Counted from the stretch's first letter, positions 13,602 to 64,000 are shown. The stretch: 64,000 nucleotides of DNA from an uncultured bacterium (GCA_963740635.1 CAVUEQ010000001.1:401026-465025), one strand, 5' to 3'. Program-made: numbers and translations. The notes: a model not told the origin generated them from the letters alone.

Positions 13602-13859
13602 CTAAAACCAAATGCTTAGGGGCGCGATGGCGCCAAACAGCCCGATGATAGCGCCCACGATCATCACCGCATACTCGATTTTGCGGTCGATGGCGAAGTG
13701 GTCGTGCTGAGCTACAATAAGTCCGACGACCAGGCCTCCTGGAATTAACGGGAGGCCGTTGATTTTGATCCAACATAGTCCCAGCGTCAGGAAGACGAGA
13801 ATTTTCAGGAAATAGGCGTTGTCGGATTCCCGGGCGCTGGTTTTGCGGACTTTACTCAT
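13602..13859 (-). CDS. hypothetical small membrane protein (85 aa)
   Basis: Two to three hydrophobic helices. Start lies 6 nt after TGgTTTAAT (13866-13874). Confidence 0.5.
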   Translation of the reverse strand: MSKVRKTSARESDNAYFLKILVFLTLGLCWIKINGLPLIPGGLVVGLIVAQHDHFAIDRKIEYAVMIVGAIIGLFGAIAPLSIWF

Positions 13860-13971
13860 GCGCGTATTAAACCATAAGCGTGATGCAGGTGCAATGGGTG
13901 GCTTTGACTTCTAAGGCAGGTGGGTCTTTCCGAGCGTTTTGGATGATACTACTTTCGCAAAAATAGATACT

Positions 13972-13999
13972 TTTTGCACCTATTCCTTTTGCACCTATT
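13972..13999. repeat. tandem direct repeat, 2 x TTTTGCACCTATT
   Basis: Identical 13-mers at 13972-13984 and 13987-13999 (period 15), next to a GCAAAAA/TTTTTGC hairpin. Confidence 0.6.
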
Positions 14000-14034
14000 T
14001 GATGGTAGTTGATTCGCCAAAAAAGTAATCAGGC

Positions 14035-14067
14035 CCGCCGCACCCTCCAGTTGGAGAGATGCGGCGG
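14035..14067 (-). terminator. GC-rich hairpin ending the rarA operon
   Basis: CCGCCGCA (14035-14042) pairs with TGCGGCGG (14060-14067), with an inner CTCC/GGAG stem. The T-run on the minus strand is about 10 nt away, so it is not canonical. Confidence 0.45.
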
Positions 14068-14280: not shown

Positions 14281-15498
<1,218 letters not shown>

Positions 15499-15531
15499 GT
15501 ATTCACTATAACCGCCGCGGCGCCAGATATG

Positions 15532-16120: not shown

Positions 16121-16783
16121 CTATTTTGCGCGCTGAGCGAACTTGCCGTCAATGGCCGCAATGGCGGTCGTGAGTGAGGAATCGAGCTGGCCGTCGAGCA
16201 GGCGGGCCTCGGCGATAAGCTGCTCCGGGTTGCCGGGGCCGGCGCTGCTGCTGGGGGCATATTTGGCTTCATAGGCCAGGGTTTCGAGGTGGGTGGCCTG
16301 GTCGAGCCAGTAATAGGCCGTGGCGATCACGCCCAGCAGGCGGGCGTCTTGCATCACGAACAGCCGGCCCGAGGCTTTCACGGAGGTCCAGAACTGCGTG
16401 AGGTAATCAATGCGGGCAAACAGGGTGGTGCTGCCGCGGCGGGCGTCAAACAAGGCTTTGTCTTCGGCCAGCTCTGCCCGGATTTGCTCGAGGATATCGC
16501 GCTCCATCTGGAGCGTGTTGGGGGCTGCGGCCGCGTGGCGGGCCGGCTCGGGGCGCAGCGTGCCAAAAAACAGGCCGACCGGAATGCCGATCATCACGCC
16601 TAACGCGCCTGCCGCCACGCCTGATCCCAGGAAGGCCAGGTAGCTGCCGGCCAGGGCGCCGGCGCTGACCCGGCCAAACAGATAAGCCAGCGGGGCCAGC
16701 AAGGCCAGCACGCCGAGCATAACCCGGCCGCTCAGCCGGAAGCCGCTCCCGGGTGTTTGAGGGGTGATGTCTGGAGTTGCCAT
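16121..16783 (-). CDS. hypothetical membrane protein (N-terminal TM helices plus helical soluble domain)
   Basis: 220-aa ORF. First gene of the operon with the proteasome-like gene and rarA. Confidence 0.55.
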   Translation of the reverse strand: MATPDITPQTPGSGFRLSGRVMLGVLALLAPLAYLFGRVSAGALAGSYLAFLGSGVAAGALGVMIGIPVGLFFGTLRPEPARHAAAAPNTLQMERDILEQIRAELAEDKALFDARRGSTTLFARIDYLTQFWTSVKASGRLFVMQDARLLGVIATAYYWLDQATHLETLAYEAKYAPSSSAGPGNPEQLIAEARLLDGQLDSSLTTAIAAIDGKFAQRAK

Positions 16784-16794
16784 AAGAATGCACT

Positions 16795-16823
16795 ATTATA
16801 AGCGCATTTTGACAAATGATCAA
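16795..16823 (-). promoter_or_regulatory. promoter of the membrane / proteasome-like / rarA operon
   Basis: Minus strand reads TTGATC (16818-16823), 17 nt, TATAAT (16795-16800). The ATG is 11 nt after the -10. Confidence 0.5.
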
Positions 16824-17001: not shown

Positions 17002-17466
17002 TTATCCTGTAGTGTCTCGGCCGGCGCGCGCCAGCAGCCCTTGTTTGCGGGCCTCATTGGCCCAATGATCGGCCAGCTCGTTGCCGGGATCATTATTGTG
17101 CCCGCGCACCCACACCAGGACCGCCCGCGACTGGCGATAAAGCTCCACCACCTCCCGCACCAGATCGAGATTTTTGATCTCACCGCCTTTTTTCTTCCAC
17201 CCGTTGCGCTCCCAACCAACGGACCACTTGGTGATCACGTTAATCCAAAATTCCGAATCGGTGTGAATGGCGCAGGGTGCGCCGGCGGCATCCTGAAGCG
17301 CCGCTATCAGCGCCCGGCCCTCCATGCGGATGTTGGTGCTATCGGGGTCGCTCCCGAGGATATGCGGCTTCATGTCGCGAATAACCGCGAACCCGCCGGC
17401 GCCTGGATTGGGCTCGCAGCTGCCATCGGTGTAGTAAATTATGGGATCTGGGCCGGTTTCTGACAT
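17002..17466 (-). CDS. rnhA: ribonuclease HI
   Basis: 154-aa ORF with RNase H motifs (YTDGSC...GAGG, TNIRMEGRA, HTDSE, VRGHNNDPGNELAD). Confidence 0.9.
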   Translation of the reverse strand: MSETGPDPIIYYTDGSCEPNPGAGGFAVIRDMKPHILGSDPDSTNIRMEGRALIAALQDAAGAPCAIHTDSEFWINVITKWSVGWERNGWKKKGGEIKNLDLVREVVELYRQSRAVLVWVRGHNNDPGNELADHWANEARKQGLLARAGRDTTG

Positions 17467-17586
17467 GGGTTAATTTTACACTAAAAGTCGAACGGCCGGC
17501 CCCCTGGAGGGATCAGCCATCGAGGTGCTCGAGTTGCTGCCTATTCCGGGGCTGTAATTTCCGCGCCGCACCGCTACAATCGGGGT

Positions 17587-17841
17587 ATGAATAATGCAGA
17601 TTTAATCCTGTCGGGCGAAGTCATCGAGCAATCCTGTTCCGAGGACCAGGCCGCGGCCTTTCGATCCGCCATCGAGAATCTCATGATTGAAGACCTGGTG
17701 GCGATTAATGATTACCTCAATGCCGGCGTGGCGCCCGACTCGGATTGGCAATCCTATTGGAATGCCTTTGCCAAATTTGAGTGGAAAGACTTCAGCATCG
17801 CCTACCGCCACGTCCTCGACCGCGACTTCAGCTTGGATTAA
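17587..17841 (+). CDS. hypothetical acidic protein (84 aa)
   Basis: ATG lies 6 nt after TACAAT (17575-17580). No recognised domain. Confidence 0.45.
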   Translation: MNNADLILSGEVIEQSCSEDQAAAFRSAIENLMIEDLVAINDYLNAGVAPDSDWQSYWNAFAKFEWKDFSIAYRHVLDRDFSLD

Positions 17842-18559: not shown

Positions 18560-18868
18560 TTACGCGTAGGTGGGCACGGCGACTTTTATTTCAGAGGGTG
18601 AGTCTTCTACTAACTGCGGCGGCATCCAGGGCGACCTTGCTGTTTTGACCCAACCCAACTCCTCGAGCACTTCGTCAGTCGTGCCTCGTTCGTGAAGATC
18701 CTCGAAGAAGAGCATTACCGCCTCGCCAAACCGTTTTTGGACGTCAGCTTTGCTTTTACCCTGTACGCTCAGCTCGAGCACGGGGGTGTAGGCAATGAAA
18801 TAGTTCCCTTGTTGCATCAGCATCACAGGTAACTTATATTCTAATTTGGCGGCGATTGGTTTGCTCAT
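18560..18868 (-). CDS. hicB: HicB-like antitoxin (UPF0150 N-terminal fold)
   Basis: 102-aa ORF. ...GNYFIAYTPVLELSVQGKSKADVQKRFGEAV... matches the HicB N-domain. Lies 7 nt upstream of hicA. Confidence 0.65.
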   Translation of the reverse strand: MSKPIAAKLEYKLPVMLMQQGNYFIAYTPVLELSVQGKSKADVQKRFGEAVMLFFEDLHERGTTDEVLEELGWVKTARSPWMPPQLVEDSPSEIKVAVPTYA

Positions 18869-18886
18869 GCAGCAATTATAGCTGAG

Positions 18887-19822: not shown

Positions 19823-20473
19823 GCCGAGACCGGCGACGAGGTTGATGGTGGTGGCGATGATGACAGTACCCAGCAGGTAAGCCAGCAACGCGTGACGCAG
19901 CCCCATGGAGCGGAATTCGCGTGATTTGAGGCTGGTATCGGAGACCTGGTAGGTCATGCCCATGGTGAAAGCGAGGTAGGCGAAATCGGCGTAGACTGGG
20001 GTCTTGGTGTCGCCAAAATCGACGCCGCCGGTGGGAGCGGTGTAATACAACTCGGCGTAGCGCAGCGCGTAGAGTGTGTGGACCATCAGCCATGACGCCA
20101 TCACGCTGATGACGGCGAGGGTGGTGCTGGAGATTTGGGCGCCGCTGGGCGTGCCTTTGGCGTTCACGAGGATGAGCGCCACCGCGCCCAGGCTGGCAAT
20201 GCTGGCCACCAGGAGGATGGCATCCGACACCACGCGCGATGGGTCTTCGCGGGTGGCGTGCTTTTTGACGAGATCGGGGCCGTATTGCGATACCTGGGCC
20301 CAGGTGACGGCCACGAACAGGACGGCGACGGTGTCCCAGGCCACGATGGCGGCTAGCGCGATTGGCGCGGCGCCGGCGGTGAGACCACCCACGGCAATCC
20401 CGGCAACAGCAATTGCAGCTAGCTTCACCCAGGCGCGGGGGACGGATTTTTCGTTGGTGAGCTTTACCGGCAT
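19817..20473 (-). CDS. DUF1345-like integral membrane protein
   Basis: Start set at ATG 20471-20473 (MPVKLTNEK...), 6 nt after TGcTATAAA. The longer track ORF overlaps the upstream gene with junk-like sequence. Confidence 0.65.
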   Translation of the reverse strand: MPVKLTNEKSVPRAWVKLAAIAVAGIAVGGLTAGAAPIALAAIVAWDTVAVLFVAVTWAQVSQYGPDLVKKHATREDPSRVVSDAILLVASIASLGAVALILVNAKGTPSGAQISSTTLAVISVMASWLMVHTLYALRYAELYYTAPTGGVDFGDTKTPVYADFAYLAFTMGMTYQVSDTSLKSREFRSMGLRHALLAYLLGTVIIATTINLVAGLGK

Positions 20474-20488
20474 GATCAATTTATAGCA

Positions 20489-21143: not shown

Positions 21144-21309
21144 GATATGTACCCCAATCTGGATCTCGTGGGAGGATATTGGCTTCACGGTTATACCATA
21201 AAGCTGGCCTGCGGCAAAATGGCGAGCTCCGATCTTAAGCGAAAACTATTTGGTGCTTACGCTTTGCTGAGGGCCTGCGCCCGGCGGGAAGGGTGCGTTC
21301 GCGGGAATC

Positions 21310-21364: not shown

Positions 21365-22550
<1,186 letters not shown>

Positions 22551-23286: not shown

Positions 23287-24396
23287 TTATGAATTCCGCT
23301 TATTGTCCGTATCATCGCATAATTTGCCCAGAAACTCGAAAATTTCGGCCAGCTCGGCGCGGTTGACGTACTCGCCGGGGCTGTGGGGGTTGTGGTAGCC
23401 GGCGCCCATCATGACCACGTCGAGGCCGCGGCCGGCCAGGATGCCGCCGTCGAAGCAGCCGTAGGTGGGCTGGAGGTTGGGGGTGAGGTTGACTGCCCCC
23501 AGCGCGCCGGCGACGTGCCGGAAGAGCGCGCCCGATTGGTCGAGGCGGTAGGCCGGCGAGTCTTTGGCGATGGTGATTTTGGGCTCCACGCCGTGCTTTT
23601 TGGCCGTGTCGCGGAAGGTTTGCTCGACCTGCGCGGCGGCCGCATCGGCCTTGGCTGTATCAAAACTGCGCAGCTCGGCCTGGAGCGAAGCCACACCGGG
23701 AACTTGGTTACGGGCTTTGCCAAAGCCGAATATGCCGATGTTGCAAGTGACGCCCGGCTCGTACTCCCCCACCTTGATTTGATTTGCGGCATCGATGAGG
23801 GCGGCGCCGGCGTTGCGCCCGGCCTGCCATTCGGCGGGGTGGGCGGTGCGGCCCACGTATTCGACGTCGATTTTGATATAGGCCGGACTCTGCGTGACGA
23901 CATTGTTGACCCGGCCGGTCCAGTCGAGCACAATGGCGCGCTTAGCGCTCAGCAGTTTCATGTCGAGGTCTTTGGCGCCGAGGCAGCCGGACTCTTCGCC
24001 GACCGTGAACAACAGTTCGAGCGGACTGGCCGGCCTCACTCTCCCAGCGGCGATGGCGCTCACGAGCTCCAGGAGGGCGGCTACGGCTGCCTTATCGTCG
24101 CCGCCGAGCAAACCCGTGCCGTCGGTTTTGATGACGTCCGGGTCCACGACCACCTGGCGGCCGGCCAGCGGTGCGGCAATGTCGGTGTGAGCCACCAGGG
24201 CTAGGGCCTCGCCGGCTGCCTCCGATCCCGGTATGCGCGCCACGATGTTGCCCATTGGGTCTTTCTTATAAGGAACATTTCCTTTCTCAAGCCGGCCGGT
24301 AATATATTCCAGTACCTTTTTCTCGTGTGGGTGCACCTCGTCGATGGCTACTAGGTCGAGGAAGGTTTGCTCGAGTTGAGTTATGCGCTGTGACAT
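23287..24396 (-). CDS. M20-family metallopeptidase (peptidase T-like)
   Basis: 369-aa ORF. HTD...GGDDKAAVA...GEESG metal-ligand blocks. ATG is 6 nt after TGcTACAAT (24403-24411). Confidence 0.75.
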   Translation of the reverse strand: MSQRITQLEQTFLDLVAIDEVHPHEKKVLEYITGRLEKGNVPYKKDPMGNIVARIPGSEAAGEALALVAHTDIAAPLAGRQVVVDPDVIKTDGTGLLGGDDKAAVAALLELVSAIAAGRVRPASPLELLFTVGEESGCLGAKDLDMKLLSAKRAIVLDWTGRVNNVVTQSPAYIKIDVEYVGRTAHPAEWQAGRNAGAALIDAANQIKVGEYEPGVTCNIGIFGFGKARNQVPGVASLQAELRSFDTAKADAAAAQVEQTFRDTAKKHGVEPKITIAKDSPAYRLDQSGALFRHVAGALGAVNLTPNLQPTYGCFDGGILAGRGLDVVMMGAGYHNPHSPGEYVNRAELAEIFEFLGKLCDDTDNKRNS

Positions 24397-24534
24397 GCAT
24401 CGATTGTAGCAGAGGAATTTTTTTGGGTTCAGGCACTAGCCAGTTGGTGTCTCAAATTGGGAGATAGGGCGAAATATTAGCCTCGAATTTGAAAGTTATG
24501 TCTCAAAATGAGACACCCTGTTGATTGGGCGCAT

Positions 24535-46935: not shown

Positions 46936-48216
46936 CTACTTGGCCTCGGCGTAACTGACGAGCCTGGCGATCACTTTCGAGCTCATGAGGTGGTTGTAGA
47001 CCTCTTCGCGGGTGTTGGGGTTGGACAGCTCGGCCTGGGTGGCCGGGTCCGGGTAGTCGCGCTTGAGGCGGTCGATTTCGTGGTCGAGCTCTGCGGCGGT
47101 GACGCTGAGGTTTTCGGCCGCGGCCACCTCGGTGAGCACCATGGCCAGCCCCACGCGGCGTTCGGCCTCGGGACGCATTTCTTGGTCCATGTCATCACGG
47201 GTTTTGCCCGAGAGGTCGAGGTATTTCGCAAAATCGAGACCGCTGGCGGCCAGGTTTTGCTCGAGCTCAGCCCGCATGCGCTCAAGTTGCTGCTCCACAA
47301 GGGCATTCGGTATTTTGAAATCGCTCTTCTTGAGCAACTCATTCAGCACATCTTGCTCATAATCGCGCGAAGAGGCCTCGGCTTTCTGGGCGGTCAGTTT
47401 CTCGGTGATATCGGCCTTGAGCTCGGCCTCGGACTTAAACGGACTCACGCGCTCCACGAAGTCTTTATCGACCTCGGGCAGCACCAGCTCGGTGACGGAA
47501 TTAAGCTTAATCTTAAAGGTTACGACTGTGTCGGCCAGGGTTTTCTCATGGTAATTAGCGGGAAACCGGATGTCGAACGTCTTCTCGTCGCCCTTCTTTA
47601 GGCCGGTAATTTCGGCCTCGAAGCCGGGGATGAATTGGCCCGAGCCCAGCTGCAGAGTCTGGTTTTTGGCCGAGGCGCCGGGCACGGCCTGGCCGTCCTT
47701 GGTGCCTTCGAAGTCAAAATTGACCTCATCACCCTGGCGCGCGGGCTGCTCGGAATCCAGGCGGGTGGCCTCACGGCGCCGCAGGTCCTGGATGGTGCGC
47801 TCGATCTCGGCCGCCTCGATTTTGATGGCCGGGCGCTTCACCCGCAGCTTCTTGTAGTCGGGCAACTTCACTTTGGGCAGCAGTTCGGCCTTCACTTTGT
47901 AGACGAGGGTGGTGTAGGGTACGAATTTCTCGAGCGACACTTTGGGGCTCGACACTATTTGGAGCTTCAGCTCCTTCACGGCGCCGGGGTAGGCGTGCTG
48001 GATGGCGTGGTCGATGAACTCGCGCTGCACGGTGTCGGCGCCGAGCTCGCGCTCCACGATCACATCGGGGGCTTTGCCCGGCCGAAAGCCCGCGGCTTTC
48101 ACGCGGCCGCGCAGTTCGTTAAACACCTCGGTCTTGATGTGGTTGAGAGAACCCTCATCGAGCGCCACAGTGAACTCGATTTCGGCGTCGGTGCGGGTGA
48201 GAATATTGGTTTCCAT
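46936..48216 (-). CDS. tig: trigger factor
   Basis: 426-aa ORF with the trigger-factor N-terminal / PPIase / C-terminal arrangement. Confidence 0.92.
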   Translation of the reverse strand: METNILTRTDAEIEFTVALDEGSLNHIKTEVFNELRGRVKAAGFRPGKAPDVIVERELGADTVQREFIDHAIQHAYPGAVKELKLQIVSSPKVSLEKFVPYTTLVYKVKAELLPKVKLPDYKKLRVKRPAIKIEAAEIERTIQDLRRREATRLDSEQPARQGDEVNFDFEGTKDGQAVPGASAKNQTLQLGSGQFIPGFEAEITGLKKGDEKTFDIRFPANYHEKTLADTVVTFKIKLNSVTELVLPEVDKDFVERVSPFKSEAELKADITEKLTAQKAEASSRDYEQDVLNELLKKSDFKIPNALVEQQLERMRAELEQNLAASGLDFAKYLDLSGKTRDDMDQEMRPEAERRVGLAMVLTEVAAAENLSVTAAELDHEIDRLKRDYPDPATQAELSNPNTREEVYNHLMSSKVIARLVSYAEAK

Positions 48217-48287
48217 AGTCTAATACGTTAGCATGCCCCGCCGCCCGGGCAAAGCGTTAGCGCCACGGCTTGGTGTATGCTCGGGGT

Positions 48288-49235
48288 ATGAAACAGTACG
48301 ATTTGCTGGCGGTCGGGGGCGTGTATGTGGACATTAATTGTCTAAATTTTCCGTTTGGCGATGCCGGCATCGGGCTCGAAAAAGAAATTGTCAGCCTTGG
48401 CGGCGGTTACGAGATGGTGGCCGGCGGGTCGGCCATGAATTTCAACCGGCTGTGCCACGGGCTGGGTCTGAGCAGCGTGCTCGTGGGCAAAGTCGGTGAC
48501 GACCGGGCCGGGAAATTGCTAGAAGAATTGGTGCAGGAGGCAGGCGTGGAGCCGGCGCTGATCGTGGACCAGGAAGTGCGGACCAATCTGGGCCTCAACT
48601 TTGTGAACCCTGAGGGCCGCACGATTATCGCCTCCGTGGGTTCGGCCAACCAGGCGCTCGACCCGGAGAGCGTATTGGAGCGGGCTGAGCCTCTGCTCAA
48701 GGACGTGCGCTATCTTTATCTCGGGACTTGCCTGAAGTTGACGCGGCTGCTGCCTGCCTATGAGCACTTGGTGATACTGGCGAAGAATACGGATACCAAA
48801 ATCGTGATCGACCACGGCCGCATCACCAATGCCACGACCGACGAGGACCTGGCCATGACCCGCGACCTGGTAGCGCACTCCGACTACTATCTGCCCAGCG
48901 CTGATGAGTTTATGCAAATGTGGGACGCGAAGTCGATCGAAGACGGGCTGAAATCCCATGATTGGGGCCAGACCTGGGTGGCGGTAAAAGACGGTCCGAA
49001 CGGCGTTTATGGCTTTGCTGAGGGCGGCCTGACTAATGTGCCGGCCTTCGACGTCAAGGTCATGAACACGGTCGGCGCGGGCGACGCGTTTAATGCCGGC
49101 TTTGTGGCCGCCCTCCACGACGACCGCGGTTTCGACGAGGCCTTGCGGCTCGGCAACGCGGTCGCTGCCCTCAAAATCTCGCGCGATGAATTGCCCACCC
49201 GGGCAGGTGCTGAAGGTCTAATGCGGAAAGCCTGA
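48288..49235 (+). CDS. PfkB-family carbohydrate kinase
   Basis: GAGDAFNAGF signature. ATG 48288 (MKQYDLLAVGG) lies 6 nt after TATGCT. The track ORF starts at 48270. Confidence 0.8.
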   Translation: MKQYDLLAVGGVYVDINCLNFPFGDAGIGLEKEIVSLGGGYEMVAGGSAMNFNRLCHGLGLSSVLVGKVGDDRAGKLLEELVQEAGVEPALIVDQEVRTNLGLNFVNPEGRTIIASVGSANQALDPESVLERAEPLLKDVRYLYLGTCLKLTRLLPAYEHLVILAKNTDTKIVIDHGRITNATTDEDLAMTRDLVAHSDYYLPSADEFMQMWDAKSIEDGLKSHDWGQTWVAVKDGPNGVYGFAEGGLTNVPAFDVKVMNTVGAGDAFNAGFVAALHDDRGFDEALRLGNAVAALKISRDELPTRAGAEGLMRKA

Positions 49236-49513: not shown

Positions 49514-49785
49514 AGTGACCCGAGGTAGTCTTCCAGCTCAGAGTCGTTGACGACAGTGTTGACCCGACCGGAAGCATAATCAGCTTCTGCCTCGCGGATT
49601 AAGCCTTGGAGGTAAGTCGTTGGCTCTAATGAAGAGCTGAGGGTTATTTCGCGGCTACGCAACATCTGCTTGATGGTGGCATTCACTAGCGACGTTGCCG
49701 GGATGCCAACCTCTTCGGCAAACTCCTTGAGCTCTTTCCGGGTGGCTTCATCAAGACGTACGTTCATGGTGACGGTTTTACTCAT
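49510..49785 (-). CDS. relB: RelB/DinJ-family antitoxin
   Basis: Start set at ATG 49783-49785 (MSKTVTMNVRLDEATRKELKEFAEEVGIPATSLVNATIKQML). It lies 6 nt after TACAAT, with a TTTACA -35 and an ATGTG-TAT-CACAT palindrome. Confidence 0.7.
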   Translation of the reverse strand: MSKTVTMNVRLDEATRKELKEFAEEVGIPATSLVNATIKQMLRSREITLSSSLEPTTYLQGLIREAEADYASGRVNTVVNDSELEDYLGSL

Positions 49786-49939
49786 GATTTGATTGTATGC
49801 TTTATGTGTATCACATGTAAACACGTCCAGGCCAGGAGGCCAATCGCTCCGCCGAAGGTCAGGTGCCAGGGATAAATCCTGGGATGAGTTTAAGTGGGGC
49901 CCATACATTCAGCTTAACTTATTTAGTAGCTGCGGCGTG

Positions 49940-53333: not shown

Positions 53334-53336
53334 TCG

Positions 53337-53478: not shown

Positions 53479-53925
53479 TCAGTGGGTCGAGATGGCCCAT
53501 ACTAACAGCGTAAATGCGTATAAGTTTATTAGTAACGTTCTAATCCAGTGTGTTTGCAGAATCTTCTTAAGATACGTACTCTTTGGCCCTGCTGGATCTT
53601 TACTAAGTTTCGCCTGCCATTGTCCCCAAAACATTGCGGTAAGAATAAGAGAAAGGGCTTGATAGAGGATCGTAGTCCAAATCGCCCATTGCGGTGACCC
53701 GTCCGGATGATACCAGGCAAGGGTAATTGAGCCTATAAGTGCGACTCCAACTGGAGCAAAAATCCAGTAGGGTAGTTTTCTCCAATGCACCTCCTGGACC
53801 TTGTGAAAGTCCTTGGAATCGACCAGCTTCCACGTCCTGAAAATATCAATTTCCATTGCCCAAATGGTGCCTACGTTATAGAAACCAAGAGCGAGATTCA
53901 ATAGAAGGAAGGTGTATGTACTCAT
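53479..53925 (-). CDS. hypothetical 4-TM membrane protein
   Basis: 148-aa ORF. ATG is 6 nt after TATAAT (53932-53937). Confidence 0.55.
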   Translation of the reverse strand: MSTYTFLLLNLALGFYNVGTIWAMEIDIFRTWKLVDSKDFHKVQEVHWRKLPYWIFAPVGVALIGSITLAWYHPDGSPQWAIWTTILYQALSLILTAMFWGQWQAKLSKDPAGPKSTYLKKILQTHWIRTLLINLYAFTLLVWAISTH

Positions 53926-54106
53926 GCTTAAATTATACAGATATCCTGGCCAGCGATAAAGGCGACAAATACGTGATGGGCACTACTTTCACTTCCTTTG
54001 GATCACCGAGACGCCATTGCTAAATTATCGCATTTATTACAAACAAGCGCCGATAATTCGAGGCGCTCTTGTACTATCGACTGATGTAAACATAAGAATG
54101 ATATCT

Positions 54107-57704: not shown

Positions 57705-59765
57705 CTAATCGAGAGAAGTCACGGCTTTGAGGGCGTTAACCTTGGCCGCAACCGAAGGGTGCTTGAGCATGGCGCCGGGGTCGGAGAGGAATTTGAGGGC
57801 TTCGGCGCGGACGGACGCCAGGAATTTGACGTCGGAGATGTCGGCCAGCTGGACGTCGAGGGTGCCGTGCTGGCGGCGGCCGTAGATTTCGCCGGGGCCG
57901 CGCAGCTCGAGGTCGATCTGCGCGAGCCGGAAGCCGTCGCGGGATTTTTCGAGCGCGCCGAGCCGCTCGAGGGTGCCGGGGGCTTTGGATTCGGCGACGA
58001 GGAAGCAGCTGGCGGGGTGGGCGCCGCGGCCGATGCGCCCGCGCAATTGGTGGAGCGCCGCCAGGCCGAAGCGTTCGGCGCCCTCCACGAGCATGACTGT
58101 GGCATTGGGTATATCGATGCCGACCTCGATGACCGACGTGGATACCAGGATGTCGAGCTCGCCCGCCGCGAACTGGTCCATGACGGCCTGTTTGTCGGCG
58201 GTGGCCATGCGACCGTGGAGTAAGCCGAGCCGGCGGTGCTTGAACGGGCCCTCGGACAAGCGTTTGAATTCGGCGGTGACACTTTTGGCGTCGAGTTCGG
58301 GCGAATCATCGATGAGCGGACACACCACGAACACCTGGCGGCCGGCGGTGATCTGCTCGTTAATGTGGTCGTAGGCCTTGGCGCGGCTTTTGGCGTCGAG
58401 CACCTTGGTGGTGATGGGCTGGCGGCCCGGCGGCAGGCCCTCAATCACCGACACGTCGAGCTCGCCATAAACAGTGAGCTGGAGGCTGCGCGGGATCGGC
58501 GTGGCGGTCATGGACAGCAAGTGCGGCAGGCGGCCGGCCTTGGCCTTGAGCTGCTTGCGCTGGGCCACGCCGAAGCGGTGCTGCTCGTCGATGATGACCA
58601 GGCCGAGATTGGGCAGCTCCACCGATTCGCCGAGCAGGGCCTGCGTGCCGATTACCAGCAGCGGGCCGCCGGCCTTGATGCGCTCCACGGCGGCTTTGCG
58701 CTCGGCGGCCGGCTGTTTGCCGAGGATTACGGCGGTGCGGTAGCCCAGCTTCTCCAGCAACAGCCCGATTTTGGCGGCGTGCTGGCGGGCCAGGATCTCG
58801 GTGGGCACCATGAGGGCGGCCTGATATCCGCTTTGCATAGCCATAAACGCCGCCATGGTAGCCACCACGGTTTTGCCCGAACCCACGTCGCCCTCGAGCA
58901 GGCGGTTCATGGGCTGGTCGCGGCCCAGGTCCTGAAAAATCTCCCAGGCCGCCTTCTTTTGGGCCGGGGTGAGGTCAAATTCCACCTCGTGCAGAAATTT
59001 CTTGGCGCTGTCGACCTCGAAGGGCATCTGCGGCGCACTCTCGGTCTTAATTTCGTGTTTGATCACGAGGCTGGTGAGCATCAAGAACCACAATTCCTCG
59101 AAGGCCAGCCGGTTGCGGGCCTTGGTCAACGCCGCCGTTGACGGCGGGAAATGAATGTCGAGCAACGCTTTGGTGATCCCGATGAGCTTGGCCGATTCGA
59201 TGACGGCAGGCGGCAGCGTTTCGACAAGCGTCGGAATCAGCGGCAGCACTTCGCGTACCAGGCCGCGGATTTGCTTGCTGCTGAGCCCTTCGGTCTCGGG
59301 GTACACCGGCACGATGCGGGCGGTGTCCTTGGTCATTTTGCCCTCGGCCACCACCTCGATGGCAGGCGACCGCAGCGCCAGGTCGTTGTTGGCGAAGGTG
59401 AGCTGGCCGCTCACAAGCACCGGCGTGCCCGTCGGGATGGTTTTGGCGAGGTACGATTGGTTGAACCACACGGCCTTCACGGTGCCGGTGCCGTCGGAGA
59501 TAATGGCTTCGGTAAGGTGCAACTTGCGCCCGCGCGCATAGCGTCCGGCCACGCGCTCGATCTCGCCGCGAAATGTAACGTTGCCCGGCCGCATCATCCG
59601 GATGGGAATAATTTTCGAGAAATCGTCGTAGCGGCGTGGAAAATGACGCACCAGGTCACCGAGCGTGGCGATATTCAGGCGCTCGAGCTTGTGCGCCATC
59701 TCCGGGCCAACCCCTTTTAAGGAGCCAATGGGCCGGGCCTGCCAATCATGTGACGTTTTCTCCAC
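57705..59765 (-). CDS. recG: ATP-dependent DNA helicase RecG
   Basis: 686-aa ORF. Wedge domain plus SF2 helicase motifs (GDVGSGKT, DEQHRFG). GTG start 6 nt after TGcTACACT (59772-59780). Confidence 0.92.
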   Translation of the reverse strand: MEKTSHDWQARPIGSLKGVGPEMAHKLERLNIATLGDLVRHFPRRYDDFSKIIPIRMMRPGNVTFRGEIERVAGRYARGRKLHLTEAIISDGTGTVKAVWFNQSYLAKTIPTGTPVLVSGQLTFANNDLALRSPAIEVVAEGKMTKDTARIVPVYPETEGLSSKQIRGLVREVLPLIPTLVETLPPAVIESAKLIGITKALLDIHFPPSTAALTKARNRLAFEELWFLMLTSLVIKHEIKTESAPQMPFEVDSAKKFLHEVEFDLTPAQKKAAWEIFQDLGRDQPMNRLLEGDVGSGKTVVATMAAFMAMQSGYQAALMVPTEILARQHAAKIGLLLEKLGYRTAVILGKQPAAERKAAVERIKAGGPLLVIGTQALLGESVELPNLGLVIIDEQHRFGVAQRKQLKAKAGRLPHLLSMTATPIPRSLQLTVYGELDVSVIEGLPPGRQPITTKVLDAKSRAKAYDHINEQITAGRQVFVVCPLIDDSPELDAKSVTAEFKRLSEGPFKHRRLGLLHGRMATADKQAVMDQFAAGELDILVSTSVIEVGIDIPNATVMLVEGAERFGLAALHQLRGRIGRGAHPASCFLVAESKAPGTLERLGALEKSRDGFRLAQIDLELRGPGEIYGRRQHGTLDVQLADISDVKFLASVRAEALKFLSDPGAMLKHPSVAAKVNALKAVTSLD

Positions 59766-59815
59766 TAGGGTAGTGTAGCAAACGCAGGTTTCGGCAAATC
59801 ATTTGCTCGAAATTA

Positions 59816-59872: not shown

Positions 59873-61042
59873 TTATATGACTTTAAAAAAGCGCTTCTTG
59901 CCGACCTGGACGAGGTCGCCGGACTTGAGCTTGTGGGACTCGCCGTCGACGGGCTTGCCGTTGACCTTGATGCCGTCTTGATCGATGAGGCGGCGGACCT
60001 CGGTGCGGGATGAGACTAGCTCGGCGCCGACGAGGAAGTCGATAAGATTGGGGGATTTACCTTTAGAAGAAATTTCGTCGATTAGCTCATCGCTCGGGCC
60101 CTTTTTATCGCGGTAGGTGCGGTTCCAGGCGGACTCGGCTTCGAGGGCAGCCGCCTCGCCGTGGTACATCCGCACGATTTCGCGGGCCAGGGAGGCCTTG
60201 GCGTCGCGGGGGTTGGCGCCGCCGGCCAGGGTTTTTACCAGCGCGTCGATGACGTCCAGCCCGATTTCGGTGCAGAGTTTGTAGTAGGGCGCGATGAGAG
60301 AGTCGGGTAGGCTCATGACACGCCCGTACATGTCGACCGGCGCGTCGGTGAAGCCCACGTAATTGTCGAGGCTTTTGCTCATTTTGCGGGAGCCGTCGAG
60401 GCCTACGAGCAGTTCGCAGGTAAACACTATCTGCGGCTTTTGGCCGAGCTTCTTCTGCAGCGCTCGGCCGGCCACGAGGTTAAACAGCTGGTCGGTGCCG
60501 CCAAATTCCATGTCGGCCTCGAGCGCGACCGAGTCGTAGGCCTGCATGAGCGGGTAGAGCAATTCGTGCAGCGCCAACTCCTGGCCACTCTCGAGGCGGT
60601 TTTTGAAGTCGTCGCGCTCGATGATTTGGGCCACACTGATGTTTGACGCCAGACCGATAAGGTCGCCGAAGCTGAGTTTGCCCAGCCACTCGGAGTTGTA
60701 GCGGATTTCGGCTTTCTTAACGTCCAGAATGGCGCCGACCTGGTCGAGGTAGGTCTTAACGTTGGCCGCAATCTCGTCGTCGGTGAGCATGGGGCGGGTC
60801 TGGCTCTTGCCCGACGGGTCGCCGATCTTGGTGGTGTAGTCGCCGATGAGGAAAATGACGGTGTGGCCGAGGTCCTGGAAGGCCCGGAGCTTGCGCAAGG
60901 CCACGGCATGGCCGATGTGCAGGTCGGGCCGGGTGGGGTCCACGCCGAACTTGATGCGCAGCTTCTGGCCTGATTCTAGTGCGCGCTCCAGTTCAGGGCG
61001 GCCAATAATCTGATCAACGCCGCGGGAAAGTAATTCGTCCAT
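59873..61042 (-). CDS. tyrS: tyrosine--tRNA ligase
   Basis: 389-aa ORF. HIGH (LHIGHAV) and KMSKS motifs, C-terminal S4 domain. Confidence 0.93.
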   Translation of the reverse strand: MDELLSRGVDQIIGRPELERALESGQKLRIKFGVDPTRPDLHIGHAVALRKLRAFQDLGHTVIFLIGDYTTKIGDPSGKSQTRPMLTDDEIAANVKTYLDQVGAILDVKKAEIRYNSEWLGKLSFGDLIGLASNISVAQIIERDDFKNRLESGQELALHELLYPLMQAYDSVALEADMEFGGTDQLFNLVAGRALQKKLGQKPQIVFTCELLVGLDGSRKMSKSLDNYVGFTDAPVDMYGRVMSLPDSLIAPYYKLCTEIGLDVIDALVKTLAGGANPRDAKASLAREIVRMYHGEAAALEAESAWNRTYRDKKGPSDELIDEISSKGKSPNLIDFLVGAELVSSRTEVRRLIDQDGIKVNGKPVDGESHKLKSGDLVQVGKKRFFKVI

Positions 61043-61115
61043 ATGGGTGGTAGTTTAGCACGCGCATGCCTAAGTTTCGAAGCGCATCTTTTCAGCTTAA
61101 ATTCACAAGCGGGAG

Positions 61116-61124
61116 TGGTATAAT
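61116..61124 (+). promoter_or_regulatory. extended -10 TGgTATAAT for the PBP gene
   Basis: TATAAT at 61119-61124, ATG at 61131 (6-nt spacer). Confidence 0.5.
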
Positions 61125-61130
61125 TTCGTC

Positions 61131-64000
61131 ATGCCTAAGCGATCCGTCCGGCGCCGGCCCGCAAAGCCGTCCGAGGACTTCACTCACAGCGCCAAAAACC
61201 ATCTGAAGAATTTCTTTCTGTCGTTTACCCCGAGCCGGTTCCGGGCTTACTGGCTGAGCCGGGACGGGTTGAAGCGGGTAGGCAAGCTAGTGGGAGCCGG
61301 GTTCCTGTTTATTTTGCTGGTGTTTTTGTGGTTTGCCAAAGACCTGCCCACGCCGGGTAAAATTAACGCCCGGGTGACCGCCCAGACCACCAAGTTCTAC
61401 GATTCCACCGGCAACAAGCTTATTTACGAGCTGTATGGCGACCAGAACCGCAGCATTGTAGCATTCGACCAGATCCCGGCGGTGGCCAAGAACGCCACCA
61501 TCGCCATCGAGGACAAGAATTTCTACCACCACGGAGCATTTAGCTTTTTGGGTTACATCCGCGCGGGATTTGCCGACCTGCTGCACCGCAACACGGCGCA
61601 GGGCGGCTCGACGATTACGCAGCAGTACGTGAAGAACGCGCTGCTCGACCCGGCCGACCACAGCTTTTCGCGCAAGATCAAGGAGCTGATCCTGTCGATG
61701 GAAATCGGCCAGTTCTATTCCAAAAACGACATCCTCACGCTCTATCTTAATGAGATTCCCTACGGCAACCGGGCGTATGGCATCGAGAGCGCCTGCAAGA
61801 CGTTCTTCCCGCAGGATATCGACAAAGCCGACAAGGACCAGCATTGCGCCAAGAACCTCGATTTGGGGCAGTCGGCCCTGCTGGCGTCCATTCTGAACGC
61901 GCCGTCGTACTTTTCGCCCTACGGCGCCCACCAGCCGCAATTGATCGACCGGCAGCACATCGTGCTCGACCTCATGGTGGAGCAGGGTTACGTCAGTAAG
62001 ACCGACGCTGACGCCGCCAAGTGGACGGTCGAGGACCTCAACGTCCAGAATCCGAACGTCAAGATCGCGAAGGAGCAAAATCTGTACGCCAACCTCGACC
62101 CCCGGTTGGCCCACTTTGTGCTTTACGCTCAGGATTACCTGGAGAACAAATACGGCACCTCGACCGTCACCGAGGGCGGCCTGAATGTGCGCACGACGCT
62201 CGACTACGACAAGCAGATGGCGGCCTACAACGCCATCCAGGCCAATATGAAGCACATCCAGGCGCTCGGCGGGTCGAATGCGGCCATCGTGTCGACCGAC
62301 CCGCGCAACGGCCACGTGCTCGCGATGATCGGCTCGCACGACTTCAACGACCCCAACGGCGGCCAGGTCAATGTGGCCACCAGCCAGCGCCAGCCGGGCT
62401 CAAGCTTTAAGCCCATCGTGTACTCGACCCTGTTTGGCAAAAACAAGGATGCGGCGTGTGCCAAATCCCGTGATTGCCCCACCTACGGTCCCGGCACCAC
62501 TATTTATGACGTGCCCACCAACTTCGGCACCGACGCCAACCCCTACAAGCCGCAAAACTTCGGGAACAAGAATTACGGCATCATCACGGTGCGGCAGGCC
62601 TTGGCCGGCTCGCTGAACGTGCCGGCGGTGAAGGCGCTGGCGATGGCGGGGATCAGCAATTCGCTCCAGACGGCCCAGGCACTCGGCATCGACACCCTCA
62701 AGTCGGCCGACAACTACGGCCTGTCGCTGGTGCTGGGAACCGGAGGTGTGGAGCTGGTGGAAATGGCCAACGCCTACGAATCGTTTGCCAACGGCGGCCT
62801 GCATTATGAGCAAACGCCGATATTGCTGCTCAAAGACCAGAAGGGCAACATCATGGAGGACAACACCAAGCCCGCCAAGCCCAAGCAAGCGCTCGACCCG
62901 CAGGTAGCCGGGCTGATGGCCGACGTGCTGAGCGACAATGGGGCCAAGCAATTCGTATTTGGCAACGACCTGACGCTGCGCAACATGTGCATCAACAACC
63001 ATGCCACGAACTGTTTGCACGCCGGGGCCAAGACCGGCACCACCGAGCACTTCAACGACGCCTGGACGATGGGCTTCACGCCGGATCTGGTGGGCGGCGT
63101 GTGGGTGGGCAACAACGACAACAGTCCAATGAGTGCGGCGGCGGCCGACATTGCCGCCCCTATCTGGAGGACCTACATGAACGCGGTGCTGGGCGGCACG
63201 CCGAATGAGGCCTTCGCCAAGCCCGCGAGCCTTAAGACCGTGTCGCTCGACAAGACGACCGGCCGCGGCGTCACAGCCGGCACCAAGACCACGACGGTCG
63301 ACCTGTTCCCCAGCTGGTACACGGCCATGGGTTCGGTGGGCGGCAAGAGCGCGCAGATCGACAAGGTCTCCGGTAAGCTGGCCACGGAGTGCACACCCGA
63401 CCTGGCGAAAGACACCGCCTACTCCAGCGCGATTCTGCCTGAGATCACGAAGGCCGAAAATCCGAGCCAGTACCTAAACTGGCTGACGGCACTGCAACGG
63501 GCGGGCTATTCCACCAGCGGCGGCGATTTGCCCACCGACGCCGACAATGTGCACCATTGCGACGACGTGAAGCCGACGGTGGTCATCAACGGCGCGGGGG
63601 GCGGCGGGCCATACAATCTGAACATTAAAGTAAACTCGGGAACCTTCACAGCCAACAAGCTCGAAGTGTACTTTGATGACCAGATTGTGTCGACGCAGGT
63701 AATTGACGGCACCGGGACCTACCCCGTTTCGTACGCTCCGACCACTACCGGCAGCCATGACTTTAAGGCGGTGGTAACCGACGCCGCGCTCTACCAGGGC
63801 AGCGATGATAAATCCGTAACCGTCACCAACAGCGGCGGGGGCGGCGGCTTCAGCGGCGTGCTGCCCGCGGATGGCAGCCAGGTGCCGTCCGGGCCGGTGA
63901 CATTTAGCTGGACTATTGACTCCGGGGCCAGCAGCTATAGCTTGTATGTCGATAATATTCTGCGCGGAACCACTGCCGCGACTGTGAAGTCGGTGAGCGG
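61131..64000 (+). CDS. class A penicillin-binding protein (GT51 transglycosylase + transpeptidase), 3'-truncated by the window edge
   Basis: Not in the ORF track because it is open-ended. My translation reads MPKRSVRRRP..., a TM helix, EDKNFYHHGAF, GGSTITQQ, RKIKE (GT51), SSFKP at 62400 and KTGTT at about 63030, then Gly-linked beta-sandwich-like repeats. Confidence 0.88.
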   Translation, partial: MPKRSVRRRPAKPSEDFTHSAKNHLKNFFLSFTPSRFRAYWLSRDGLKRVGKLVGAGFLFILLVFLWFAKDLPTPGKINARVTAQTTKFYDSTGNKLIYELYGDQNRSIVAFDQIPAVAKNATIAIEDKNFYHHGAFSFLGYIRAGFADLLHRNTAQGGSTITQQYVKNALLDPADHSFSRKIKELILSMEIGQFYSKNDILTLYLNEIPYGNRAYGIESACKTFFPQDIDKADKDQHCAKNLDLGQSALLASILNAPSYFSPYGAHQPQLIDRQHIVLDLMVEQGYVSKTDADAAKWTVEDLNVQNPNVKIAKEQNLYANLDPRLAHFVLYAQDYLENKYGTSTVTEGGLNVRTTLDYDKQMAAYNAIQANMKHIQALGGSNAAIVSTDPRNGHVLAMIGSHDFNDPNGGQVNVATSQRQPGSSFKPIVYSTLFGKNKDAACAKSRDCPTYGPGTTIYDVPTNFGTDANPYKPQNFGNKNYGIITVRQALAGSLNVPAVKALAMAGISNSLQTAQALGIDTLKSADNYGLSLVLGTGGVELVEMANAYESFANGGLHYEQTPILLLKDQKGNIMEDNTKPAKPKQALDPQVAGLMADVLSDNGAKQFVFGNDLTLRNMCINNHATNCLHAGAKTGTTEHFNDAWTMGFTPDLVGGVWVGNNDNSPMSAAAADIAAPIWRTYMNAVLGGTPNEAFAKPASLKTVSLDKTTGRGVTAGTKTTTVDLFPSWYTAMGSVGGKSAQIDKVSGKLATECTPDLAKDTAYSSAILPEITKAENPSQYLNWLTALQRAGYSTSGGDLPTDADNVHHCDDVKPTVVINGAGGGGPYNLNIKVNSGTFTANKLEVYFDDQIVSTQVIDGTGTYPVSYAPTTTGSHDFKAVVTDAALYQGSDDKSVTVTNSGGGGGFSGVLPADGSQVPSGPVTFSWTIDSGASSYSLYVDNILRGTTAATVKSVS

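What the first reader, a model, noticed from the sequence alone, without database searches (positions are those of the whole stretch)
13857..61133. Thirteen genes start exactly 6 nt after a -10 hexamer: a pervasive leaderless-mRNA architecture
Each case reads hexamer, 6-nt spacer, start codon (coordinate is the start-codon boundary):
- 13859(-): TTTAAT acgcgc ATG
- 17466(-): TAAAAT taaccc ATG
- 17587(+): TACAAT cggggt ATG
- 20473(-): TATAAA ttgatc ATG
- 24396(-): TACAAT cgatgc ATG
- 30232(-): TATAAT gacgca ATG
- 33240(-): TAGAAT caggtc ATG
- 44051(+): TATGAT ttcggt ATG
- 48288(+): TATGCT cggggt ATG
- 49785(-): TACAAT caaatc ATG
- 53925(-): TATAAT ttaagc ATG
- 59765(-): TACACT acccta GTG
- 61131(+): TATAAT ttcgtc ATG
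None has a Shine-Dalgarno sequence, and transcription would begin at or within a base of the start codon. tig (8 nt), tyrS (9 nt) and the 16783 gene (11 nt) are near-leaderless. Genes inside operons and several first genes (tuf, clpP, ilvC, mazE, the HTH gene) do use AGGAG-type Shine-Dalgarno sequences. The constant spacing also settles the correct start for several ORFs that the six-frame track over-extends.
Basis: seen in the sequence. Interest (0 to 1): 0.6.

Follow-up and report, generated by a model that had tools for sequence, protein, structure and literature searches.

The report
Leaderless gene starts in a Saccharimonadia genome
About a third of the transcription units in this window of a small candidate-phylum (Saccharimonadia/TM7) genome carry a promoter -10 box exactly 6 bases before the start codon, so their mRNAs probably have no leader; this design is well known in Actinobacteria and Deinococcus, and I found no report of it for this lineage.

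Summary
All 13 hexamer-N6-start strings are in the sequence as written. The pattern is well above chance. TANNNT-N6-ATG occurs 25 times against 10.3±3.1 in shuffles. Before ATGs that open at least 80 codons, spacer 6 has 12 hits against about 2.4 at other spacers, with none at spacer 5.

The hexamer behaves as a sigma-70 -10 element:
- T-12, A-11 and T-7 are nearly invariant.
- G at -14 is enriched, as in an extended -10.
- C at -1 precedes the A/G at +1.
- There is no -35 signal.

It is found only before first genes of transcription units (15 of 45, against 0 of 27 operon-internal genes). It never co-occurs with a Shine-Dalgarno tetramer.

Orthologues in related Saccharimonadia keep the hexamer and the spacing while the spacer bases diverge. 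The public gene calls on the source contig use the same start for 10 of the 12 reader sites that could be looked up.

Site 44051 is ambiguous. Sites 13859 and 20473 have off-consensus hexamers but comparative support.

This is the known "TA-led/leaderless" architecture (GeneMarkS-2 group C) in a new lineage. Transcription starts remain unmapped.

The parts
13320..13334 (-). TATAGT acttat GTG.
   Evidence: The L168 orthologue starts ATG MWIFICGNLPLP, at the position of this GTG (VWIFILGNLPLP). The public call uses ATG 13373 instead.
13857..13871 (-). TGG TTTAAT acgcgc ATG. Start of an 85-aa ORF. The hexamer is off-consensus because it lacks A-11.
   Evidence: TGGTTTAAT-N6-ATG is conserved in the L168 orthologue. 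The same start is used in the public call. It is the first start codon in the ORF.
15496..15510 (-). TATAGT gaatac ATG.
   Evidence: L168 has TATAGT ggagat ATG. 8 of 10 distant Saccharibacteria orthologues have a -10-like hexamer at 6-7 nt. The public call agrees.
16781..16800 (-). TATAAT, 11 nt, ATG. Near-leaderless start (a leader of about 4-5 nt) of a 220-aa ORF.
   Evidence: TTGATC-17-TATAAT. TATAAT at 11 nt is conserved in L168.
17464..17478 (-). GTG TAAAAT taaccc ATG. Start of RNase H (154 aa).
   Evidence: GTGTAAAAT-N6-ATG is kept in L081 and L168 with different spacer bases. Only one open codon lies upstream. The public call agrees.
17575..17589 (+). TACAAT cggggt ATG. Start of an 84-aa ORF, divergent from RNase H.
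   Evidence: The L081 orthologue has TATGAT at 8 nt, and the two divergent starts are only 38 nt apart there. The public call agrees.
18866..18880 (-). TATAAT tgctgc ATG. Start of a 102-aa ORF upstream of hicA, 18 nt after the rpsJ stop.
   Evidence: TCGAAA-17-TATAAT. The public call agrees.
20471..20485 (-). TGC TATAAA ttgatc ATG. Start of DUF1345 (218 aa). The hexamer lacks T-7. It lies directly after a terminator hairpin.
   Evidence: The terminator is at 20517-20502. The L081 and L168 orthologues have GTG TACAAT-N6-ATG after a hairpin and are called at 218 and 217 aa. The public call agrees.
21186..21200 (-). TATGGT ataacc GTG. Possible leaderless start of shikimate kinase. Uncertain.
   Evidence: The public call uses ATG 21143. 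Profile boundaries are ambiguous.
24394..24408 (-). TGC TACAAT cgatgc ATG. Start of an M20/PepT-like peptidase (369 aa).
   Evidence: L168 has TGC TACAAT cgaaag ATG. PepT-like profile position 2 aligns to residue 8. Terminators lie upstream. The public call agrees.
30230..30244 (-). TATAAT gacgca ATG. Start of a NUDIX hydrolase (191 aa).
   Evidence: The motif-blind coding model picks it. The public call agrees.
33238..33252 (-). TGC TAGAAT caggtc ATG. Start of a PCC-domain protein (142 aa).
   Evidence: Three open codons lie upstream. The same start is called in an independent Logan assembly and in the public record.
44039..44053 (+). TATGAT ttcggt ATG. Candidate start of a 110-aa ORF. Ambiguous.
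   Evidence: The rival ATG 44036 has GAGGT 5 nt upstream and is the start in the public call. No orthologue was found in the relatives.
48214..48230 (-). TGC TAACGT, 8 nt, ATG. Near-leaderless start of trigger factor (a leader of about 1-2 nt).
   Evidence: TAAYCT at 8 nt in L171 and L172. TANNNT at 8 nt in L089, L091 and L092. Most of the 120 homologues listed are called at 426 aa, the window's length.
48276..48290 (+). GTG TATGCT cggggt ATG. Start of a PfkB-family sugar kinase (315 aa).
   Evidence: The L171 orthologue has GTG TATGCT cgagtc ATG and is called at 314 aa. The public call agrees.
49783..49797 (-). TACAAT caaatc ATG. Start of a RelB/DinJ-like antitoxin (91 aa) upstream of a ParE/YafQ toxin.
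   Evidence: TTTACA-18-TACAAT. RelB/DinJ profile position 1 aligns to this Met. The public call agrees.
53923..53937 (-). CTG TATAAT ttaagc ATG. Start of a 148-aa membrane ORF in the low-GC island.
   Evidence: It is the first start codon in the ORF. The public call agrees.
59763..59777 (-). TGC TACACT acccta GTG. Start of RecG (686 aa).
   Evidence: It is the only start codon upstream of the conserved LKGVG segment. 11 of 16 orthologues have TANNNT at 6-8 nt.
61040..61057 (-). TAAACT, 9 nt, ATG. Near-leaderless start of tyrS.
   Evidence: tyrS orthologues have TANNNT at 6-8 nt in L111, L092, L095, L091 and L151.
61119..61133 (+). TGG TATAAT ttcgtc ATG. Start of a class A penicillin-binding protein, divergent from tyrS.
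   Evidence: It is the first start codon in the open frame, with 10 open codons upstream. The motif-blind coding model picks it.

Best explanation
The window comes from a 60%-GC member of Candidatus Saccharimonadia (Saccharibacteria/TM7, CPR). About one third of its transcription units are built for leaderless expression.

Each of these units has a sigma-70-type -10 element, consensus TAYAAT. It often has G or TG just upstream (extended -10) and no recognisable -35. Its last T lies 7 nt before the first base of the start codon.

The proposed mechanism has two steps:
1. RNA polymerase starts at the A (or G) of ATG/GTG, which is preceded by a C at -1. The mRNA therefore begins with its start codon.
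2. Translation starts without Shine-Dalgarno pairing, by a ribosome with initiator tRNA recognising the 5'-terminal AUG/GUG.

Operon-internal genes and the remaining first genes (tuf, clpP, ilvC, rpoB, mazE and others) use ordinary leaders with GGAG-type sites.

Shown: the motif, its exact position, its enrichment, its restriction to first genes, its exclusion of Shine-Dalgarno sequences, and its conservation in orthologues.

Inferred: the transcription start and the mode of ribosome loading. These rest on experiments with the same motif in Mycobacterium and Deinococcus.
For: Enrichment and sharp spacing.

-10 identity: T-12 in 17/17 sites, A-11 in 16/17, T-7 in 16/17, G-14 in 11/17, C-1 in 11/17, and no -35 signal.

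Placement: 15 of 45 first genes against 0 of 27 internal genes (Fisher p = 5e-4). No Shine-Dalgarno tetramer in any of the 15. Terminator hairpins lie just upstream of the 20473, 21188 and 24396 starts.

Start codons:
- A motif-blind codon-usage model picks exactly these starts for 12 of 17 sites.
- The public gene calls on the 828,923-bp source contig carry the same products for 12 sites.
- Profile boundaries fit for the antitoxin and the M20 peptidase.

Orthologue conservation:
- L168 (69-88% nucleotide identity) keeps the hexamer at 6 nt for M20, DUF1345, rnhA, mgsA and orf85. My count from the sequences printed gives 28/30 hexamer bases identical against 13/30 spacer bases.
- L081 does the same for DUF1345 and rnhA, and there two divergent starts are only 38 nt apart.
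- L171 does the same for pfkB.
- 8 of 10 distant mgsA orthologues and 11 of 16 recG orthologues have a hexamer at 6-8 nt.

Lineage signal: pooled Saccharibacteria loci give 17 and 13 strict hexamers at spacers 6 and 7 against about 3 elsewhere, while 70 non-Saccharibacteria loci show no comparable peak, only a 3-base periodicity.

Literature: TANNNT with its first T 12 bp before the start codon is the published signature of leaderless genes (PMC3160421, PMC6028130). It was validated by mapped transcription starts in M. tuberculosis and D. deserti (PMC3898074, PMC4007540) and by mutagenesis in D. radiodurans (PMC12340547).
Against: No transcript 5' ends or N-terminal peptides exist for this organism.

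Most sites lack a -35 match: the two-hexamer scan finds only 3 of the 17.

Three sites are individually uncertain:
- 44051 has a rival start with its own Shine-Dalgarno sequence, and that rival is the one in the public call.
- For aroK, the public call uses ATG 21143 rather than GTG 21188.
- 13859 lacks A-11.

The sample is only 64 kb. The sequence has frameshifts in tuf, fusA and rpoB, so local errors are possible.
Confidence: 0.85

Rival explanations
1. The hexamers are real -10 promoter elements, but for a sizeable share of the genes the adjacent ATG/GTG is not the translated start. In that case those mRNAs are short-leadered or mis-annotated rather than leaderless.
For: 44051 has an upstream ATG with GAGGT, and that ATG is the start in the public call. 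aroK and orf124 are publicly called at other ATGs. The codon model prefers ATG 59699 for recG.
Against: For 11 of 17 sites the motif-adjacent codon is the first possible start in the ORF. 12 of 17 match the public calls. The recG and orf124 orthologues support the GTG starts. The coupling of ATG to exactly 6 nt would not arise if the ATG were irrelevant.
Confidence: 0.08
2. The A/T-rich hexamer is a translation signal inside a longer leader, that is, a non-Shine-Dalgarno ribosome-binding or S1-binding site of the GeneMarkS-2 'group B' type. The promoters would then lie further upstream.
For: The motif is A/T-rich and lies where a ribosome-binding site would lie. Most sites have no -35.
Against: It is absent from all 27 operon-internal genes, which use GGAG instead. 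Its conservation pattern is that of sigma-70 -10 recognition (T-12, A-11, T-7), with an extended -10 G and a C(-1)/R(+1) start context. Terminators lie immediately upstream at several sites. In L081 a 38-nt divergent intergenic region holds only the two hexamers.
Confidence: 0.05
3. Chance, or a by-product of A/T-rich intergenic DNA and in-frame stop codons next to ORF starts.
For: Intergenic DNA here is less G+C-rich than coding DNA. Two hexamers (TAA AAT at 17466, TAG AAT at 33240) begin with an in-frame stop codon.
Against: 0 of 100 shuffles reach the observed count. The peak is confined to spacer 6, with 0 at 5 and 3 at 7, and no excess at the in-frame spacers 0, 3, 9 or 12. The 70 control loci from other phyla show only codon periodicity. 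Orthologues conserve the arrangement.
Confidence: 0.02

Closest known systems
TA-led (leaderless) genes of Actinobacteria and Deinococcus-Thermus (Zheng et al. 2011, PMC3160421; Cortes et al. 2013, PMC3898074; de Groot et al. 2014, PMC4007540; PMC12340547)
   Same: A TANNNT -10 box with its first T 12 bp before ATG/GTG. No Shine-Dalgarno sequence. The share of genes is similar: more than 20% of genes in those phyla, and 33-38% of transcription units here. Toxin-antitoxin modules are among the leaderless genes.
   Different: The lineage is Saccharimonadia (CPR). The middle bases are informative here (TAYAAT), closer to the medium-GC pattern Zheng et al. describe for 40-60% GC groups than to the bare TAnnnT of most groups above 60% GC. 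In this window the spacing is strictly 6 nt, whereas related Saccharibacteria use 6-8 nt. No transcription-start data exist.
GeneMarkS-2 'group C' genomes (Lomsadze et al. 2018, PMC6028130)
   Same: A Pribnow box 6-8 nt before the first gene of an operon, with Shine-Dalgarno sites on the other genes. This is the mixture seen here.
   Different: That paper reports group C mainly in Actinobacteria and Deinococcus-Thermus. I could not check whether any Saccharibacteria were classified, because the supplement is not held.
Extended -10 (TGnTATAAT) promoters that work without a -35
   Same: G at -14 in 11 of 17 sites, TGn in several, and no -35 signal.
   Different: T at -15 is present in only 6 of 17 sites, and in several the TG directly abuts the hexamer. 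Dependence on the TG was not tested.
Non-Shine-Dalgarno upstream motifs of Bacteroidota ('group B')
   Same: An A/T-rich motif close to the start codon, with no Shine-Dalgarno sequence.
   Different: Group B motifs also precede operon-internal genes. Here 0 of 27 internal genes carry the motif.

Membership tests
Bacterial leaderless (TA-led) genes / GeneMarkS-2 group C architecture | A -10-like TANNNT hexamer whose first T lies about 12 bp upstream of the start codon (spacer 6-8 nt) | tested here: met
   15 TANNNT and 2 variant hexamers at exactly 6 nt. The logo matches the sigma-70 -10.
Bacterial leaderless (TA-led) genes / GeneMarkS-2 group C architecture | Positional enrichment of the motif over shuffled or background sequence | tested here: met
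   25 against 10.3±3.1. 12 against about 2.4, and 9 against about 0.3, across spacers.
Bacterial leaderless (TA-led) genes / GeneMarkS-2 group C architecture | No Shine-Dalgarno sequence upstream of the same start codon | tested here: met
   0 of 15 have GGAG, GAGG, AGGA or GGGG at -18..-3. 29 of the other 57 genes do.
Bacterial leaderless (TA-led) genes / GeneMarkS-2 group C architecture | The motif is confined to first genes of operons, and internal genes use ribosome-binding sites | tested here: met
   15 of 45 first genes against 0 of 27 internal genes.
Bacterial leaderless (TA-led) genes / GeneMarkS-2 group C architecture | The arrangement is conserved in orthologues of related genomes | tested here: met
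   L168, L081 and L171 for 7 genes. Distant mgsA, recG, tig and tyrS orthologues.
Bacterial leaderless (TA-led) genes / GeneMarkS-2 group C architecture | Primary transcript 5' end at, or within about 5 nt of, the start codon | not testable with these tools
   No RNA data. The TM7x transcriptome preprint has no start-site or UTR analysis.
Bacterial leaderless (TA-led) genes / GeneMarkS-2 group C architecture | Translation initiates at the 5'-terminal AUG/GUG | not testable with these tools
   Support is indirect only: the coding signal begins at these codons, and profile and orthologue N-termini fit.
Non-Shine-Dalgarno ribosome-binding motif (group B type) | The same motif precedes operon-internal genes as well as first genes | tested here: not met
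   0 of 27 internal genes.
Extended -10 promoters | A TG dinucleotide at -15/-14, one base upstream of the hexamer | tested here: inconclusive
   G-14 in 11 of 17 sites but T-15 in only 6 of 17.

The most novel reading that the evidence does not exclude
Saccharimonadia, and perhaps Saccharibacteria as a whole, would be a further major bacterial lineage in which leaderless mRNAs drive a third or more of transcription units, alongside Actinobacteria and Deinococcus-Thermus. This is not described in the literature I could search. If true, it would matter in three ways:
- It would bear on how the reduced CPR translation apparatus initiates.
- It would link these episymbionts to their Actinobacteria hosts, which use the same signals.
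- It would give a rule for correcting gene starts in CPR genomes. GTG-initiated leaderless genes such as the 124-aa ORF at 13322, and probably recG, appear to be called wrongly or differently in the public record.
Probability: 0.5. Interest if true: 0.45.

Novelty: new member of a known kind. Interest (0 to 1): 0.3.

Why it matters
The finding is correct but belongs to a well-described class. Its value is practical and taxonomic.
- It extends the leaderless architecture to a CPR lineage whose gene expression signals are almost unstudied.
- It gives a simple positional rule (-10 box, 6 nt, start codon) that fixes start codons and defines transcription-unit boundaries in these tiny genomes.
- It shows that the conserved str/S10 ribosomal gene clusters here are broken up by independently transcribed leaderless genes.
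- It identifies promoter fragments that could serve as expression signals for the emerging genetics of Saccharibacteria.

It does not reveal a new mechanism.

Tried and rejected
- Exact-protein contig look-ups failed for rnhA, clpP, rpsL and the 664-aa recG form.
- The genome-contig scan with MgsA found only relatives at 61% identity or less, with no conserved synteny. It informed only on mgsA itself.
- The metagenome scan with RecG found only relatives at 51% identity or less.
- The two-hexamer promoter scan recovers 3 of the 17 sites plus the 16783 promoter, so I dropped the idea of canonical -35/-10 promoters. A position logo confirmed that there is no -35 signal.
- No orthologue of the 44051 ORF is present in the close relatives, so that start stays unresolved.
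- PBP1 orthologues have longer, unalignable N-termini and gave no information on 61131.
- Five searches combining leaderless or Shine-Dalgarno with Saccharibacteria, TM7, CPR or Patescibacteria returned nothing substantive.
- The GeneMarkS-2 supplement is not held. The J Bacteriol TM7x paper is not held by PubMed id.
- I rejected the stop-codon and periodicity artefact. In-frame spacers 0, 3, 9 and 12 show no excess, and control loci show only 1/4/7 periodicity.


Full report
**What the window is**

The window is 59.7% G+C. It carries the str, S10 and spc ribosomal gene clusters, rpoBC, tig-clpP, recG, tyrS and a class A penicillin-binding protein.

Its proteins match exactly the products called on one public contig of 828,923 bp (NCBI/ENA). 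Some members of its S10 protein cluster are named Candidatus Saccharimonadia or Saccharimonadales. The nearest species representatives for MgsA are Saccharibacteria MAGs at 55-61% identity. A Logan contig from run ERR11718635 is 100% identical to window 30618-36159. The organism is therefore a high-GC member of the Saccharibacteria (TM7) within the CPR.

All 13 strings are present as written. Eleven hexamers fit TANNNT. 13859 has TTTAAT and 20473 has TATAAA.

- TANNNT-N6-ATG occurs 25 times on both strands. Dinucleotide-preserving shuffles give 10.31±3.12, and none of 100 reaches 25. Other spacers give 4-22.
- About half of the 25 sit at real gene starts, and the rest equal the chance level.
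- I restricted the count to ATGs followed by at least 80 open codons. This uses no gene calls and no knowledge of the motif. Spacer 6 then has 12 hits against 0-5 for every other spacer from 0 to 30, with none at 5 and three at 7.
- With a stricter hexamer (TA.AAT or TAYAMT) the count is 9 against 0-2. The Poisson p values are 8e-6 and 1e-10.

**Is the hexamer a promoter -10 element?**

I aligned the 17 sites on the start codon.

- T-12 is present in 17/17 sites, A-11 in 16/17 and T-7 in 16/17. The consensus is TAYAAT. These are the positions sigma-70 reads most strictly.
- G at -14 is present in 11/17 sites, as in an extended -10.
- C at -1 precedes the A/G of the start codon in 11/17 sites. 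This is the usual pyrimidine(-1)/purine(+1) start context. The p value is 0.003 for each of these two enrichments.
- No -35 signal appears. The two-hexamer scan finds only three of the 17 sites.
- With the hexamer at -12..-7, the first base of the start codon is +1.

**Where the motif occurs**

I curated 72 genes.

- 15 of 45 first genes of transcription units carry TANNNT at 6 nt. None of 27 operon-internal genes does (Fisher p = 5e-4).
- None of the 15 has a GGAG-type tetramer at -18..-3. 29 of the other 57 genes do.
- First genes with hexamers at other distances are few: tig at 8 nt, tyrS and orf290 at 9 nt, orf220 at 11 nt, and orf85, which besides its TTTAAT at 6 nt has TATGGT at 11 nt.
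- Terminator-like hairpins lie just upstream of the 20473, 21188 and 24396 starts. Those genes therefore cannot be reached by read-through without passing a terminator, and the only -10-like element after each hairpin is the one at 6 nt.

**Are the start codons right?**

- For 11 of 17 sites the motif-adjacent codon is the first possible start in the ORF.
- A codon-usage model that ignores upstream sequence picks exactly these codons for 12 of 17.
- Exact-sequence look-ups show that the public gene calls on the source contig use the same start for 13859, 15498, 17466, 17587, 18868, 20473, 24396, 30232, 33240, 48288, 49785 and 53925.
- Three public calls differ. 44051 is called at ATG 44036, which has GAGGT 5 nt upstream. 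aroK is called at ATG 21143. The 124-aa ORF is called at ATG 13373. The 686-aa RecG form was not found in the collection.
- Profile boundaries agree with the motif. RelB/DinJ position 1 aligns to the Met at 49785. PepT-like position 2 aligns to residue 8 of the M20 protein.
- For recG, GTG 59765 is the only start codon upstream of the conserved LKGVG segment.

**Comparative evidence**

L168 is a 525-kb Saccharimonadia contig of 60% GC. It is syntenic with window 12.5-24.4 kb at 69-88% nucleotide identity. It has:

| Gene | Sequence in L168 | Comparison with the window |
|---|---|---|
| M20 | TGC TACAAT cgaaag ATG | hexamer at 6 nt kept |
| DUF1345 | GTG TACAAT caatcc ATG, after a hairpin | hexamer at 6 nt kept |
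| rnhA | GTG TAAAAT acccac ATG | hexamer at 6 nt kept |
| mgsA | TATAGT ggagat ATG | hexamer at 6 nt kept |
| orf85 | TGG TTTAAT gagcgc ATG | the off-consensus hexamer is conserved |
| orf220 | TATAAT at 11 nt | same distance as in the window |
| orf124 | ATG MWIFICGNLPLP | the ATG aligns to the window's GTG 13322 |

Over the five pairs at 6 nt, I counted 28/30 identical hexamer bases against 13/30 identical spacer bases, reading from the sequences printed.

Further relatives:
- L081 shows the same for DUF1345 and rnhA. There the divergent rnhA and orf84 starts are only 38 nt apart, with both hexamers inside that gap.
- L171 keeps GTG TATGCT-N6-ATG at pfkB. L171 and L172 keep the tig hexamer at 8 nt.
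- Among distant relatives, 8 of 10 mgsA orthologues and 11 of 16 recG orthologues carry a -10-like hexamer at 6-8 nt. tig and tyrS behave likewise.
- Pooled Saccharibacteria loci give 17 and 13 strict hexamers at spacers 6 and 7 against about 3 elsewhere. Seventy loci from other phyla show only codon periodicity.

**Mechanism**

Transcription most likely starts at the A/G of the start codon, and translation starts on the 5'-terminal AUG/GUG without Shine-Dalgarno pairing.

The first step is inferred from the geometry of the -10 element. The second is inferred from established work on leaderless mRNAs. Neither is shown here.

The alternative of a translation signal inside a longer leader is disfavoured. 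The motif is absent from internal genes, it has the sigma-70 conservation pattern, terminators lie directly upstream, and the 38-nt divergent gap leaves no room for other signals.

**Comparison with what is known**

This is the published signature of bacterial leaderless genes:
- TANNNT with its first T 12 bp before the start codon (Zheng et al. 2011, PMC3160421).
- GeneMarkS-2 'group C' genomes, with a Pribnow box 6-8 nt before first genes and Shine-Dalgarno sites elsewhere (PMC6028130).
- Confirmation by mapped transcription starts in M. tuberculosis and D. deserti (PMC3898074, PMC4007540), and by mutagenesis in D. radiodurans (PMC12340547).

All sequence-level defining features are met here. 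The transcript-level features cannot be tested.

I found no paper that connects leaderless expression with Saccharibacteria, TM7, CPR or Patescibacteria. The TM7x transcriptome preprint does not analyse 5' ends. A 2025 study inferred 188 start sites for TM7x from coverage only.

**Verdict**

It is a new lineage record of a known architecture, not a new mechanism.

Individual caveats:
- 44051 is ambiguous.
- aroK 21188 is uncertain.
- 13859 and 20473 have off-consensus hexamers but comparative support.
- 'Pervasive' means 33-38% of transcription units in a 64-kb sample.

Noticed in passing
window 21365-22550 (tuf), 24594-26685 (fusA), 40531-43882 (rpoB): Three highly conserved genes are broken by frameshifts. 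tuf has a 1-nt insertion (a C at about 21635) relative to the intact 394-aa gene of L081. fusA is split into at least two ORFs. rpoB is split into at least four ORFs, although relatives have an intact rpoB of 1182-1187 aa. rpoC, recG and the PBP gene are intact, and a 5.5-kb stretch is identical to an independent assembly. The breaks therefore look like consensus errors concentrated in conserved genes rather than pseudogenes.
   Followed up: partly
window 50356-50409 (-): TAGAAT ataccc ATG opens a 13-codon ORF (MPLILNRHLSERP). Its TGA stop overlaps the ATG of the downstream cupredoxin-like gene (an ATGA overlap), and that gene has no Shine-Dalgarno sequence. This may be a leaderless upstream ORF that delivers ribosomes by termination-reinitiation.
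   Followed up: partly
window 12833-36404: The str and S10 ribosomal clusters (rpsL-rpsG ... fusA ... tuf ... rpsJ ... rplC) are interrupted by unrelated genes. Most of these have their own leaderless promoter, and several sit behind terminators. Relatives L081 and L168 show the same fragmentation with partly different inserted genes.
   Followed up: partly
window 50400-54900: A low-GC island (45-54% G+C) lies next to tRNA-Leu (54107-54192). It holds two mazEF modules and a GH16 glycosidase. Both mazE genes have an A/GGAG-type Shine-Dalgarno sequence. mazE2 also has a canonical TTGACG-17-TACAAT promoter with a leader of about 24 nt, and TACAAT/TATACT boxes lie upstream of mazE1. This contrasts with the leaderless style of the surrounding genome and suggests horizontal acquisition. 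The 148-aa ORF at 53925 inside the island is nevertheless leaderless-type.
   Followed up: no
window 13322 vs 13373; 59765; 21188 vs 21143: The public gene calls appear to avoid GTG starts. The 124-aa ORF is called 17 codons too long (ATG 13373), although its L168 orthologue starts at the position of GTG 13322. The 686-aa RecG product is not in the collection, although GTG 59765 is the only start upstream of the conserved N-terminal motif.
   Followed up: partly
L081 6866-6905: In this relative the divergent rnhA and orf84 start codons are only 38 nt apart, and the gap holds just the two -10 hexamers back to back. This is an unusually compact bidirectional promoter pair.
   Followed up: yes
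window 19220-19262 (-); L168 9961-10000: The region upstream of rpsJ (gtgtatttagtattaac...agatagcacctaccc ATG) is nearly identical in L168 and has no Shine-Dalgarno sequence. It may be a conserved short leader, possibly regulatory.
   Followed up: no
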